DNA of 64,000 nucleotides, taken from contig CAVPIW010000019.1 in assembly GCA_963705105.1 (NCBI GenBank), positions 1 through 64,000 on the forward strand. The letters are read 5' to 3'. Origin of the DNA: an uncultured Nitrospiraceae bacterium. Lineage in GTDB: Bacteria; Nitrospirota; Thermodesulfovibrionia; Thermodesulfovibrionales; Dissulfurispiraceae. Below, piece by piece: positions 27,001 through 33,000 of the stretch. Within the stretch, counting starts at the first letter, position 1, and each line of letters begins with the position of its first letter. The position numbers are program-made.

Positions 27001-30000
27001 ATATGCGGAACACAATCCCGAAATCATTTTGCCGATACTCGTCGAATTCCTCGAAAAAGAGATGCTTCGGCCGAATGGTGGACATCCCATTCATATAGAA
27101 TGGGTCGTCAGTCGTTTGAAGAGAATATTCTCATATTCGACAATACAGAACATTCTTGCAAAGATACATCGTCATGTAAGAGATAACCCGTATTGGACTG
27201 CAAATGACAGAAGGATGGTGGATTATCTCTTTAAATCGGCATAATAATAACCCGTAGGTCCAATGGGCGGCCCAACTCTGAAAGACAGGCCTAATGATTT
27301 TCTTGAAAGAAGGTGATTAAAGTGGAACAATATGTTTTGCCGGAATGTTGAGCAAGCTAAGAAGGGGAAGGAAATGATCAGGAAATATATTCAAACTGCG
27401 ATGGAGCACGCCAACTACGAGATCCTTCAGGACGACGGCACGTATTACGGCGAGATTCGGGAGTGCCCCGGTGTCTACTCAAACGCTCCGACGTTGGAGA
27501 AGTGCAGGAGTGAGCTGGAGGAGGTTCTTGAGGAATGGATTCTGTTTCGTGTATACAAGAATCTGGATATTCCCGTCATTGATAACATCGAAATCAAGAT
27601 CAGGAAGCAGGCGATTGCCTGATGCCGACCTTTGGTCCGATCAAGAGGTCCGACCTGGTCAGGTATCTTCGGAAATGCGGTTTCGACGGCCCCTATTCCG
27701 GCGGGAAGCACCCTTTCATGGTCAAGGGGGATCTTACCCTCACCATTCCCAACCCTCATCAGAAAGACATCGGACGGGAGTTCTTAAAGAGAATACTTCG
27801 TCAAGCCGGGATCTCCAAGGAAGAATGGGAAGGGTTATAGTCCAATCGGGTGAGGGACGGCAGCAAACCGGCCATCCCTACTCCGTCTGACAAGCGAGAT
27901 CCGTCGATGACTATCGGGAAATCGCGTGAGTCATCGGTCCGGCTTTCGCGAATAAGGGGTAGAGCAGTCGTCAACCTGAACGGCAGAGGAACCATTCAGT
28001 CCGGCTTCAGGCGATCGCCTCTTCGCCTCTCTGTCCGGTGCGGATCCTCACGGCGTCCTCGATGGGGCTGATGAAGATCTTGCCGTCACCGATCTTTCCC
28101 GTCCACGCGTGTTTCGTAATCGTCGCGACGGCCTCCTCGACCATGTTGTCCGGCAGAACGATGTCGATCTTGATCTTCGGGATGAAATCGACAACATACT
28201 CGGCGCCCCTGTACAGCTCCGAATGGCCCTTCTGCCTCCCGAACCCTTTCACTTCGGTGATAGTCATCCCCTGAATGCCGATCCTGCTGAGCGCATCGTT
28301 CACATCATCAAGTTTTGACGGCTTGATGATCGCCTCTAATTTCTTCATGGAGCCTCCTCACAGCATCGTCAAATTGTTCAAGCCGGGCATATTCGAAGAG
28401 GCTCGACATGGCCTTGCTTTCCGACATGATGCCCGATTCCTCAATGGCGGCAAGCGGATTGAGCCCTCCCACGACAACCATGCCGACCTTGTCGAAACCT
28501 ACCGGTATTTCGAGGAGCGGCTTGTTCGGGTCGCCGATGAGAAGGATCCCCTCGATGCCGCTTTCTTTCATTTTTCCGGATAATTTTTTCACTTCGTCGA
28601 GGCAGACCACGGGAATTTCGCGGAAACTCGCCAGGATGCAGCCTGAGCGGTTGCGCACGGCCCCGAGGACATCCGTCATTTTGCCCCTGATGAAAATCTC
28701 GAGGGGATCAAGGGACGAACCGTCGTAGCTGATCAGGGAGAGGAAACGCGCCGGCTCTCCCCTGTCGATTTCGAGGACCCCGCCGAAGCGGGATGTGACA
28801 GGGATGCCGGCCTTGAGAAAGATCCCGTTGATCGTCACGCTGCAGACGGTCCCGATACCGACCTTTCCGTCCGGCACGGTGATGTGACCGATGCGGTCCC
28901 CGCCGCGGCGTATGATGACCCTGCTGCTCATCACGTAGGGAGACGAGAAGATCTGGGCGGCGATGCGCAGGGCCTCGCTCTCCATGTCTTCGGGAATATA
29001 GGAGACGTTCAGGATGATGTCGCCGTCCATGGTGGCGAGGTTCAGCGTCGTGAGGTACGACAGGGTTTCGATCCTGTTGATCACGAAGCCCACCTTCTCC
29101 GTCACGAACCCGTCCCTGAGCTCGCCCCTTCCCCGCTCGGTGATCTTCCTGCCCTCCTTTCCGAACACCTCCGTGTACCCCCGCTCATCGAGAATCCGCA
29201 GGTGATACCGGACGGTCCTCTCGGTGAGGTCGATGCCGTAGCGCTTGAGCTGGCGAGAGATCTCCCTCGACCCGACAACGTCGGCCTGTCCGTCAAGAAC
29301 CCTGAGGATGGCCTGCATCGTTTTATTCATATGTACCATAATGTTACCTTATGGGGCGGAAAAATGAGGGAGGCCCGGGCCTCCCTCCGCAACACGCAGA
29401 AACGAATGTATTAGCTGAAGAGTATCCTCTCGGCCTCTTCCATGTCGGACTCCATGACATAGGGAATACCCGTCACATCCGCAGCCTCCCTGGTGAGGGA
29501 GACGAGGTCGTTCCTCTCGAGGTACTTGAGGGCGAACTTCCTCTCGCCTGCCATCAGCTGCTGGAGACCCAGCTTCAGCCTGTCGCAGAAGGTGTACATC
29601 GCGACGGCGCCGAGGGGGATCTTGTCGAAATCCTTGCCGAACCTGTTCTTCAGGGTCTCATAGGAGATGAATATCCTCTCCGCAACGTCGCCGTGCTTCT
29701 TGATCTCGGCGGGGAGCTTCTCCTCGTCGATCCACTTCTGGATGTTCTTGCCGACGAAAGCGGGGATCATGAGGGCCCTTCCCATGCAGACGGCCTTGAA
29801 GAAAGGCGCGCCGAGCGCGAGGGCCTTGAAGAGGTGATCTTCAAGGGAGAAGCCGCCGGCAATGGCGAGATCGGGGACGTACTTCCCTTTTGCCTTGAGC
29901 TGGGAGGCATACTTGTATGCGAGTGCCTGGAGGTAGATCGTCGGGATGCCCCATTCGTTCATCATCCTCCAGGGGCTCATGCCCGTCCCGCCGCCGGCGC

Positions 30001-33000
30001 CGTCGATCGTGAGCATGTCCACCTGCGCATCGGAGCAATACCGCATCGCCCTGGCGAGGTCGGAGACCCTGTACGCGCCCGTTTTCAGTGAGACGAACTT
30101 GGCGCCAACCTTCCTATAATACTCGACGGCCTTCGCGAAGCCATCAGGGTCAACCATGCCGAGCCTTGAATGACGCTCGAACTCCTTGAACTCCTCCTCG
30201 CCGAATGCCTTCTGGACGATGGGATCCGTCGGGTCGGGCAGGACGATATAACCCCTGTTCTTCAATTCCTGCGCCTTCTCCATCTTCTTGACCTTCACTT
30301 CTCCGCCGATGTCCTTGGCTCCCTGGCCCCACTTGAGCTCGATGCATTCGACGCCAAGCTTCTCAACAGCGTATTCAGCAGATCCGAGCTTGGTGTCTTC
30401 CACGTTCTGCTGGAGGATGATCTCGCCGAAACCCTCATCCCAATCCTTGAAGCCCTTGATGCGCCTTTCGAGTTCGGGCGACTTCACGACCCTGCCCTTC
30501 TTGAACTGGGCGTTCATGTCCATGCCGACGACGTTCTCGCCGATGACGACGATGATGCCCGAGATGGCGGCTCCGATGGCGAGACCGTCCCAGTTATCGC
30601 GGGCGATATCCGTCGAGCCCAGGGCGCCGGTGAACACAGGCAGGCTCATCTTGATCTTCTTGCCCTTGCCGCTATTGCCGCCGAGGGTGACCTCCGTCGA
30701 AACGGCGGGGAAGATGGCCTTGTCGGGGTCGGCCTCGATGCCGACGGCGCCGACGCACGTGCCCTGGATATTGATGTGCGAGTAATCGACGGGATACTTC
30801 TTCGTCGCTCCTGCCGTCACCTTGCCGAAAGGCATCGGGTAGATGACTTCCCTGCCCCTGTATGACGACTTCCCTATCTCGCACGGACCCGGGCAGCCGT
30901 CGAGGCAGACCGAACAAATACCGGAATAGGGCGCGGGATCGGGAACCCTGTTCCGCGTACCCGTAGCTGAACTTGCGTTTGGCTGACCTTGCTTCATGGA
31001 AGACCTCCGTTTAATGATTAGTTATTTTTCGGGCCATAATTTTCAGTATTTATAACCCTAGGAGGCAAAAAAATACCGATGATATCTCCTCGCCCCCGCT
31101 TATTTTCCGTCTAATACTCCCGTTTCACACCAGTCCTGCCGTTCTTTCCCACATGACAAGAATTTCCGTCTCCTCCTCCCCATCGTTCTTCCAGCGCGCC
31201 GGAAAGGTGTCCCTCACAAAGAGCCCGTCTCCCTGGCTGAGATATTCCGTTTTGGCCTCCAGTGTCACCTCCGCGGCGCCCTTTACGACATAGAGGAACT
31301 GCGGCGACGTGTGATAGAGGAAGTGCCTGCCCAGGTCCGCCCCGGGTGGAATGACGGCGAGGCTGACGGAGAGGGTACCGGAGTTGAGAATCGGGAAGAC
31401 CCTGACCCCGTCTTCAAGCGCAGGGGGCTTCGACAAGACTTTGTCCCTTGGGAAAAGCCACGGCGCCGTCTCTTCCCTGCTTCCCTCCAGGAAATCCCCC
31501 GGCTTGACGGCCACGGCGGCGCACAGCTGGAGGAATGAGCTCAGGGACGGGCTGATCTGATTGTTTTCGAGCTGAGAGATGAAACTCGGTGTCAGCCCGA
31601 CCTTGACGGCGAGCTCCTTCTGGCTCATGCCCCGCCTCGTCCTCATCTCCCTGAGCCTGCCGCCGATATCGGTGGCGGGCTCCCGCTTCTGGGACGTGAT
31701 GGTCGCCATATCTTGCGTGATCTCGTACAGGTGGGGCTTGAAGGCCTCGCGGTCCTGTCGTCCCGAGAGTTTCAACGCCTTGATGAAGAGCTTTTCCTTT
31801 CTCTTGTAGAGATCGATGACGACCTGCGTGATGTGCCGCAGATTGGCCTTGAAATTCTGGCTATGAGCGTCCTTGTCCAAAATCCAGTAGGCGACGGTAT
31901 CGAGATCGAAAAGCCTCGGGCACATGTACGTGAAAAACTTGTATGTGCTGTTCTCGTCACCCCAGAGGTCCTGCATCCCCGTGAGGCTGTCGAGGACATA
32001 CCGTGTGCCTGCGGGGACATCGTCCTCGATGGATGTGAGGATGCGGGTGAACTCTTCGATGTTCTTCGGGTCGTTGACGCGGATCGTCCTGACGTTTCTC
32101 TCCCTTTCGTAATACTTCAGGAACGTCGGATCGTTCTTTCCCTTGCCCGACGTGAAGCAGTCGATGAGGATGAAGTATTCCGGTGTCAGGTACGGCGCGA
32201 TCTCGTTGATGATGCTCTGAGGCGACCTGTTGAAGCTGACGTAGATGACTTTCTGGGATTCGCTGTTGGACTGGCGGACGAAATTCTTGACGAATATGTC
32301 GTAGGCCGTCCCCGAGTCCACCTCCCATACGACATTATCGCCGATATGGAGTGAGTCGATAAGACTGTCGAGCGATGGTATTCCTGATGAAATATTAGCC
32401 ACGGTAAACGGCAACCTACTGTTAAGTACTTCAACTATAAATGAGTGCCCCTTCCTTTGTCAAGTAATACTTAACGCCAATCGTGTGGCTTAAAATATAT
32501 TAGAATCAATGAGTTGACAAAGTTGTCGCCTTGCCTTTACTATGGAGTAGGAATTATTGTCACTCGGCAATCGGTTACCGTCGGCGTCTATCCCTCCGTC
32601 TGGGCATAGACGCTCTTTTATGTGGAGACGGGTACAGTGAAACTAACAAAAGGATAAAAGAGACCCTCATGGACCAACGAAGCGCCGGACTCAACCTCTC
32701 CATCTTTTTTTGCCAGCAACTGGACCCGGATCAGGATGTCAACAGGCGGGCCCTTGAAAAAGAACTCGGCAAACGCATCAGGTTCTTCCCCCTGCCCTGC
32801 AGCGGCCGGATCGATCCCCTCCACCTCATGCGTGCCCTCGAATCGGGGGCGGACAAGGTCTATCTCGTCACCTGTCCCGAAGGGGCTTGCCAATACCGCG
32901 AGGGAAACATCAGGGCGCGGAAACGTGTCGCCCATACGCAGACATTGATCGAAGAGATAGGGCTTGAGAGGGACCGCATCGAGCTGATCCTGTCACCGCC

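What a model noticed while it worked through the whole genome (the two positions that open the first line are those of the whole stretch)
28308..32580. NrpR-type operator GGYAA-N4-TTRCC marks the nitrogen regulon of Thermodesulfovibrionales
A 14-bp palindrome at the transcription start of glutamate-synthase and glutamine-synthetase operons (here exact at C19:32566-32579, degenerate at the start of g03873) follows the presence of the archaeal-type repressor NrpR (g03871, C19:28308-29339) across the order. It shares the G-G-x-A-N6-T-x-C-C frame of the Methanococcus operator and is the predicted bacterial NrpR site.
Evidence so far: Before the core glt operon the site (up to 2 mismatches) is present in 17 of 19 relatives with NrpR and 0 of 10 without; background 5 of 599 upstream windows here. 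It occurs in both orientations, just after the -10 box. Whole-genome matches in relatives fall at glt, the amt/glnK/glnA region, a second glt-type gene and the regulator g03873. It overlaps or precedes the start of g03873 orthologues in 15 of 16 genomes, a test independent of how the motif was derived.
(Added by a program. Inside this text positions count along the whole contig: contig position 1 is position 1 of the stretch shown here. "Call 12" and the like, gene names such as g00115 and contig names such as C1 are that model's own, and its searches are not shown. The text may have been shortened before it was handed on; [...] marks where a part breaks off. The agent that wrote the report below was given it as the finding of a first reader that could run no searches.)

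Follow-up and report, generated by a model that had tools for sequence, protein, structure and literature searches.

The report
Bacterial NrpR repressor binding site
A 14-base DNA palindrome just downstream of the promoters of glutamate-making genes is very probably the binding site of a bacterial copy of NrpR, the nitrogen repressor of methane-producing archaea; it travels with that gene in several bacterial groups, but in this genome it marks only one pair of promoters, not all nitrogen genes.

Summary
The palindrome is real: exact at 32566-32579, two mismatches at 32403-32416, each downstream of a predicted sigma-70 promoter. It follows nrpR, not the XRE gene. Before the core glt operon a matrix trained elsewhere finds it in 51 of 76 NrpR+ and 3 of 39 NrpR- relatives. 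XRE-less families carry it before glnA (12 of 12, 11 of 11). In a Chloroflexota class, promoter plus site occurs in 20 of 46 NrpR+ and 1 of 95 NrpR- genomes; a third phylum gives weaker support. The consensus widens to GGHAA-N4-TTDCC, and some sites also fit the published Methanococcus GGAA-N6-TTCC. Corrections: the two-mismatch criterion is too loose (17 of 38 NrpR-less relatives pass), the site is not order-specific, and here amt, glnA, nif and the core glt operon lack it; amt and nif have sigma-54-type promoters. Targets vary by lineage: glt, glnA, amt/PII, gdhA, nrpR, a NifA-like activator. Binding and 2-oxoglutarate sensing are inferred, not shown. No paper on a bacterial operator turned up in the open library; this scan noted such operators before on other DNA.

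The parts
32566..32579 (.). Exact palindrome, predicted NrpR operator for the rightward mvhD-metV-metF-glt operon
   Evidence: top genome-wide matrix hit
32403..32416 (.). Two-mismatch copy touching the start codon of the XRE gene; predicted operator for the leftward promoter
   Evidence: score 14.5
32514..32543 (+). Sigma-70-type promoter (TTGACA, 18 nt, TACTAT) of the rightward operon
   Evidence: consensus match only
32434..32463 (-). Sigma-70-type promoter (TTGACA, 18 nt, TATAGT) of the XRE gene
   Evidence: consensus match only
32583..32619 (+). Terminator-like hairpin with U-rich tail in the leader, right after the operator; present in relatives with and without NrpR
   Evidence: z -2.8; 22 of 76 NrpR+ and 22 of 38 NrpR- gltB1 leaders
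28308..29339 (-). nrpR: winged helix plus one NrpR regulatory domain; likely start 29330 or 29318
   Evidence: 3NEK/MJ0159 match E=2.9e-30; alignment
28007..28348 (-). P-II family gene, overlapping the end of nrpR
29411..30997 (-). gltX: stand-alone glutamate-synthase FMN-domain protein
   Evidence: PF01645
31125..32402 (-). g03873: KaiC-like, XRE helix-turn-helix and cupin domains
   Evidence: start from orthologue alignment
31040..31077 (-). Different conserved element before gltX (GGTATTTTTTTGCC...AATACTGAA); candidate XRE site or promoter. The 1-mismatch hit at 31064-31077 belongs to it
32669..40445 (+). Target operon: mvhD-like, metV, metF, Fe-S/Glu_synthase protein, GltB2, GltB1-B3 fusion
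586..5694 (-). Core glt operon (gltB1, gltB2, gltB3/D); carries the site in most NrpR+ relatives, decayed here
   Evidence: (best score 5.8)

Best explanation
The palindrome (core GGHAA-N4-TTDCC, usually flanked by C and G, centre often MCGK) is the operator of the single-domain bacterial NrpR encoded at 28308-29339. An NrpR dimer binds it through its winged helix just downstream of a sigma-70 -10 box and blocks initiation or promoter escape. When 2-oxoglutarate rises under nitrogen shortage, NrpR lets go and glutamate- or glutamine-forming genes are transcribed. In this genome the two sites control one divergent promoter pair (mvhD-metVF-glt rightward, xre leftward); ammonium transport and nif appear to run from sigma-54 promoters instead. 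Shown: site, position relative to predicted promoters, co-occurrence, conserved recognition helix. Inferred: binding, repression and the 2-oxoglutarate signal (carried over from Methanococcus).
For: gltB1 leaders, matrix trained only on xre-start sites: NrpR+XRE+ 31 of 35, NrpR+XRE- 20 of 41, NrpR-XRE+ 0 of 2, NrpR-XRE- 3 of 37. Twelve independent tree pairs differing in NrpR: site goes the same way in 7.9, the other way in 0.0, median p 0.008. XRE-less families f8 and f5 have it before glnA, 12 of 12 and 11 of 11 (rows against positions). It precedes nrpR itself in 6 of 13 XRE-less order genomes and 15 of 29 third-phylum loci against 1 of 29 in-gene controls. Chloroflexota class: 20 of 46 against 1 of 95, or 17 of 43 after dropping three genomes used to design the pattern. 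A blind palindrome search of 37 non-Nitrospirota nrpR loci found GG.AA-N4-TT.CC in 18 loci, more than any other listed shape. In G071 nrpR is missing from an intact xre-gltX-PII run and the xre site has decayed. Helix ERxVRYHL is conserved in bacterial and archaeal NrpR. Published archaeal operator GGAA-N6-TTCC (PMC2723118, passages); some Chloroflexota sites fit both patterns.
Against: No binding data. Six NrpR-negative assemblies keep a good site: G075, G138, G146, G082 (86-92% complete), G077 (98%) and G143 (100%); a family search found no NrpR in G075, G138, G143, G146. In the third phylum the genome-wide test is weak: 14 of 58 against 26 of 193, p=0.065. 26 of 46 NrpR+ Chloroflexota genomes have no hit to the strict compound pattern. 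Among XRE-less genomes only 5 independent pairs exist, too few for a test. Position 3/12 is usually Y/R, not the archaeal A/T. The loose compound pattern hit 131 of 151 order genomes and barely separated the groups.
Confidence: 0.85

Rival explanations
1. The KaiC-XRE-cupin protein g03873 binds the palindrome and autoregulates.
For: Site at the xre start in 30 of 31 NrpR+ genomes; strict-pattern density is highest in NrpR+XRE+ genomes, 1.36 per Mb against 0.77; XRE against gltB1 site gives 7.3 same-way pairs of 13.
Against: 50 of 52 XRE+ genomes also have NrpR, and within NrpR+ genomes XRE adds nothing (1.1 same, 4.8 no difference of 6 pairs). Site present in 38 of 46 NrpR+XRE- genomes and in Chloroflexota/delta genomes with no full-length XRE orthologue (9 genomes tested). 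Absent in G071 and G150, which have xre or part of it but no nrpR. XRE-linked spacers carry another motif: 39 of 44 against 7 of 30 (motif picked by eye from the same set).
Confidence: 0.04
2. An unidentified third regulator that co-occurs with NrpR binds the site, or shares it with NrpR.
For: Intact sites in six assemblies without nrpR, one rated 100% complete; weak genome-wide link in the third phylum.
Against: The site sits before nrpR itself in three phyla and resembles the known NrpR operator; five of the six exceptions are assemblies of about 90-300 contigs and the sixth (G146) is 86% complete, so nrpR could be missing.
Confidence: 0.07
3. The palindrome acts as an RNA hairpin at the 5' end of the transcript (ANTAR-type antitermination or ribosome-site occlusion), linked to the leader terminator.
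For: It lies inside the predicted transcript; a terminator-like hairpin follows it in many glt leaders; at xre it covers the ribosome-binding zone.
Against: The non-pairing C-A combination at positions 3/12 occurs in 31 of 150 promoter-anchored sites, against about 27 expected without selection (my arithmetic). Both orientations occur. The terminator persists without site or NrpR (22 of 38) and is absent before many sites. No Rfam family. The ANTAR search of this genome found nothing but also rang in no control, so it is uninformative.
Confidence: 0.03

Closest known systems
NrpR of Methanococcus maripaludis and its operator GGAA-N6-TTCC
   Same: Same regulatory domain family (PF01995; 3NEK match), conserved recognition helix in archaeal homologues, 14-bp palindrome with GG-x-A...T-x-CC, targets in nitrogen assimilation. 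PMC2723118 (passages) gives the consensus and the targets nif, glnK-amtB, glnA; PMC4902934 and PMC9765008 (passages) give 2-oxoglutarate as inducer.
   Different: Bacterial host with sigma-70 promoters instead of TATA/BRE; one regulatory domain instead of the tandem form seen in 542-581-aa homologues; position 3/12 mostly Y/R, position 5/10 fixed A/T; main targets are glutamate synthase operons, glnA and nrpR, and nif is not a direct target here.
NrpR1/NrpR2 of Methanosarcina
   Same: Repressor of nif with a boxed operator (bioRxiv 10.1101/2020.06.15.153874, passages).
   Different: Two genes there, one here; the operator letters were in a figure I could not see.
Sigma-54 single-component activator DVU1949 of Desulfovibrio vulgaris (nitrogen regulon)
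   Same: PMC4641369 (passages) assigns it nine operons of nitrogen metabolism and transport; the amt promoters of this genome also have sigma-54 boxes with an upstream ACA-N4-TGT repeat.
   Different: It explains the nitrogen genes that lack the palindrome, not the palindrome; its motif was not in the text I read and orthology was not tested.

Membership tests
NrpR repressor-operator system | NrpR regulatory domain (NRD) | tested here: met
   PF01995 278 bits, cut-off 25; 3NEK E=2.9e-30
NrpR repressor-operator system | N-terminal winged helix with the family's recognition helix | tested here: met
   HTH_12 E=1e-17; ERxVRYHL conserved in 83+13+44 bacterial and most of 7 archaeal-type sequences (three of the seven carry no name)
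NrpR repressor-operator system | Operator consensus GGAA-N6-TTCC as published for M. maripaludis | tested here: not met
   Window site differs at positions 3 and 12 (C, A); A at position 3 in 5 of 150 anchored sites. A few Chloroflexota and order sites fit exactly. Hence a variant.
NrpR repressor-operator system | 14-bp palindrome at promoters of nitrogen-assimilation genes, co-occurring with the regulator | tested here: met
   spacer 4 gives 149 sites, other spacers 0-20 (some loci were fetched with the N4 pattern)
NrpR repressor-operator system | Direct binding and repression | not testable with these tools
   No protein-DNA tool; RNA runs held only a small share as contigs
NrpR repressor-operator system | Release by 2-oxoglutarate | not testable with these tools
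   Motifs TVCS, RFGG, YDGSSLDP, SFRE, GGLNP are shared with MJ0159 in part; ligand residues were not mapped
NrpR repressor-operator system | Regulon covers nif, glnA and glnK-amtB | tested here: not met
   None has a credible site in this genome (the C17 amt has a 1-mismatch match scoring 9.0); glnA and amt/PII are targets in other families
ANTAR dual-hairpin RNA element | Selection for RNA pairing and a fixed orientation (recalled definition) | tested here: not met

The most novel reading that the evidence does not exclude
Bacterial NrpR is a widespread, unstudied 2-oxoglutarate sensor at the top of a two-tier network. It directly represses glutamate-forming operons and, in several families, the NifA-like sigma-54 activator that switches on amt, glnA and nif. 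Its conserved target in both Nitrospirota and Chloroflexota, the mvhD-metV-metF-glt operon, encodes an undescribed glutamate synthase fed with electrons through an MvhD/MetVF module.
Probability: 0.3. Interest if true: 0.7.

Novelty: new variant of a known kind. Interest (0 to 1): 0.5.

Why it matters
NrpR has been studied in methanogens; that 'certain Bacteria' carry it is in print (PMC2723118), but my searches of the open library found no bacterial operator or regulon. A defined site makes this testable with a short oligonucleotide and one small protein, and a record titled Thermodesulfovibrio yellowstonii carries the whole arrangement (L372). It shows an archaeal-type repressor placed against sigma-70 promoters, lets nitrogen regulons be drawn for uncultured sulfate reducers and Dehalococcoidia, and flags an MvhD-MetVF-glutamate synthase operon as nitrogen-controlled. 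The mechanism itself, steric repression near the start site, is not surprising.

Tried and rejected
Up to 2 mismatches as a test: chance level. metV as marker of the window's operon: close orthologues only in G114 and G146 of 150 relatives, so the gltB1 orthologue was used. Loose compound pattern over the order: 131 of 151 genomes hit, 16 of the 20 misses NrpR-negative; too noisy. My recollection that Thermotoga maritima has NrpR: not found in that control. Archaeal operators first-hand: one metagenome locus was returned and held no site; a paper search for a recalled operator string found nothing; the 2005 primary paper is not held. RegPrecise: only the 3.0 paper's one supplementary file was searched, no NrpR; the database is unchecked. 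ANTAR search uninformative. Sigma-54 -24/-12 box as the motif's identity: rejected by spacing (GG-N9-GC against the recalled N10) and position after sigma-70 boxes. No structure prediction was run; sequence evidence was enough.
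Full report
Locus. Leftward lie a P-II gene (28007-28348), nrpR (28308-29339), a stand-alone glutamate-synthase-domain gene gltX (29411-30997) and g03873, a KaiC-like/XRE/cupin protein (31125-32402). Rightward lie mvhD-like, metV, metF and three glutamate synthase genes (32669-40445). Two back-to-back sigma-70-type promoters are predicted between them. The exact palindrome (32566-32579) starts 22 nt after the rightward -10 hexamer; the 2-mismatch copy (32403-32416) starts 17 nt after the leftward one and ends at the start codon. A second, core glt operon lies at 586-5694.

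Chance. Two mismatches are meaningless without a fixed position: 55 window matches against 56.3 expected and 434 of 2051 upstream windows. Exact matches number 8 in 4.2 Mb, and only this one lies in an upstream window.

Relatives. In 151 genomes of the order (this one included), NrpR was found in 98, the XRE orthologue in 52 (50 with NrpR) and gltB1 in 141. I read the gltB1 leader in 115 of the 141, choosing nearly all NrpR+XRE- genomes, 39 NrpR- genomes and 35 NrpR+XRE+ genomes. A matrix built from 30 sites at xre starts, all from NrpR+XRE+ genomes, scored 12 or more in 31 of 35 NrpR+XRE+, 20 of 41 NrpR+XRE-, 0 of 2 NrpR-XRE+ and 3 of 37 NrpR-XRE- leaders. Exact matches were 45 of 76 against 2 of 38; up to two mismatches, 59 of 76 against 17 of 38 (windows of 200 nt or more). 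NrpR-less kin often show a decayed remnant at the same place. On a gltB1 tree of 112 genomes, 12 supported independent pairs differ in NrpR; the site goes the same way in 7.9, the other way in 0.0, and does not differ in 4.1 (median p 0.008).

The misses are informative. Families f5 and f8 have NrpR, no XRE and mostly no glt site, but carry the exact palindrome before glnA: 12 of 12 in f8 and 11 of 11 in f5 (4 read directly, 7 by matching rows to positions). Counting any examined target promoter, 39 of 40 NrpR+XRE+, 38 of 46 NrpR+XRE-, 0 of 2 and 4 of 38 NrpR- genomes have a site, against a background of 24 of 3473 windows. This count is generous to NrpR+ genomes: more promoters were read in them, it includes the training sites, and 30 loci were fetched because they matched the pattern. 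Other targets seen were amt/PII operons, gltX, a glutamate-dehydrogenase-family gene, nrpR and a GAF-AAA-HTH activator that passes the NifA model's cut-off in two of three tested. Six NrpR-negative assemblies keep a site (G075, G138, G146, G082, G077, G143).

Beyond the order. In another Nitrospirota class, 11 of 11 NrpR+ genomes have the exact site before a glt operon; most also have XRE, and NrpR-less members were not read. In 37 nrpR loci from records titled Chloroflexota or Deltaproteobacteria, a TTGAC-anchored site occurs in 16 and the reversed control in 0. A blind search for spaced palindromes in their non-coding DNA found GG.AA-N4-TT.CC in 18 loci (20 seen, 1.9 expected); it ranked fourth by count but first by loci among those listed. 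Nine such genomes had no full-length XRE orthologue. In 141 genomes of the class of G248, promoter plus strict site occurred in 20 of 46 NrpR+ and 1 of 95 NrpR- genomes; the reversed control hit 4 genomes. Kinship was not controlled there. Of 23 downstream frames scanned, four were the same mvhD-type gene as in the window (three shown with metV and metF, one with metF), three nrpR, three Fe-S proteins and four hisF-like. In 251 genomes of the phylum of G251 the same genome-wide test was weak (14 of 58 against 26 of 193, p=0.065), although 15 of 29 nrpR leaders had a site against 1 of 29 controls.

Consensus and position. From 150 promoter-anchored sites the core is GGHAA-N4-TTDCC (fixed by the search pattern), with C before in 98, G after in 104 and a CG centre in about three quarters; 92 begin 8-12 nt after the -10 hexamer. 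The published Methanococcus operator is GGAA-N6-TTCC (PMC2723118, passages). Most bacterial sites differ from it at positions 3 and 12, but some satisfy both. The recognition helix is conserved across bacterial and archaeal homologues. The C-A combination at 3/12 is not depleted in transcript orientation, which argues for a DNA site.

The XRE rival. In G071 nrpR is missing from the middle of an intact xre-gltX-PII run, and the site at the xre start has decayed, while its congener G144 keeps both (one pair, and the gltB1 site is decayed in both). Within NrpR+ genomes XRE does not predict the site. Spacers between xre and gltX share another motif that G071 keeps.

This genome. Only the divergent promoter pair has strong sites. 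Three amt-region promoters show sigma-54-type boxes with upstream ACA-N4-TGT repeats, the first gene of the nif cluster has a sigma-54-type box, and none has a credible palindrome. The closest homologue of the NifA-like activator has none either. Whether nrpR is read from the xre promoter is open: a terminator-like hairpin lies between gltX and nrpR.

Literature. Eight searches pairing NrpR with operator, bacteria, Thermotoga, regulon, Nitrospirota, glnK, Dehalococcoides or glutamate synthase (listings and abstract starts) showed only archaeal work. I read passages of PMC2723118, PMC9765008, 10.1101/2020.06.15.153874, PMC8809328, PMC4902934, PMC4641369 and PMC1852104, and searched one supplement of PMC3840689. 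The scan's own notes hold 15 findings with these words, of which 8 were shown and six concern bacterial NrpR operators on other DNA; they are unchecked and not counted as support.

Verdict. Interest 0.5.

Noticed in passing
window 32583-32619(+), 5755-5802(-); gltB1 leaders of relatives: A terminator-like hairpin sits in the glt leader a few bases after the operator position, in 22 of 76 NrpR+ and 22 of 38 NrpR- genomes, confined to some families. What reads through it is unexplained; no Rfam match in 30900-33200.
   Followed up: partly
window 32669-40445; L299, L305, L396, L397, L405, L407: The mvhD-metV-metF(-glt) operon recurs behind the same site in two Nitrospirota classes and in Chloroflexota; in G185 and G224 it lies between two nrpR copies.
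   Followed up: partly
window 31042-31050(-), 32422-32430(-), 32466-32474(+): AATACTKAA-type motif before gltX and in the divergent promoter region; candidate site of g03873.
   Followed up: partly
G000:C10:245951, 248807, 248878; C17:52303; glt and activator promoters of relatives: ACA-N4-TGT repeats lie upstream of sigma-54 boxes at amt genes and overlap the -35 box of many glt and NifA-like-activator promoters; probably the site of a sigma-54 activator that also represses.
   Followed up: partly
L424, L425, L426, L427, L428, L314: The palindrome precedes a NifA-like GAF-AAA activator gene in six order genomes, suggesting a cascade.
   Followed up: partly
L447-L469 (phylum of G251): A two-base-spacer form GGYAA-N2-TTRCC occurs before nrpR in 13 of 30 loci, often beside the N4 form.
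   Followed up: no
L297, L298, L300-L303; L030, L052, L098: Paired sites 34 bp apart before xre in family f18, and overlapping sites offset by 7 bp in family f9 and others.
   Followed up: no
L413-L416: A hisF-like gene follows promoter plus site in four Chloroflexota genomes.
   Followed up: no
window 5885-6300 and G000:C14 upstream of 307519: Similar non-coding stretches appear upstream of the core glt promoter and of the NifA-like gene (read by eye); possibly a dispersed repeat.
   Followed up: no
window 27401-27840 and 41979-42937: A UPF0150-like gene with a small partner, and a RES/Xre toxin-antitoxin pair, flank the nitrogen locus.
   Followed up: no
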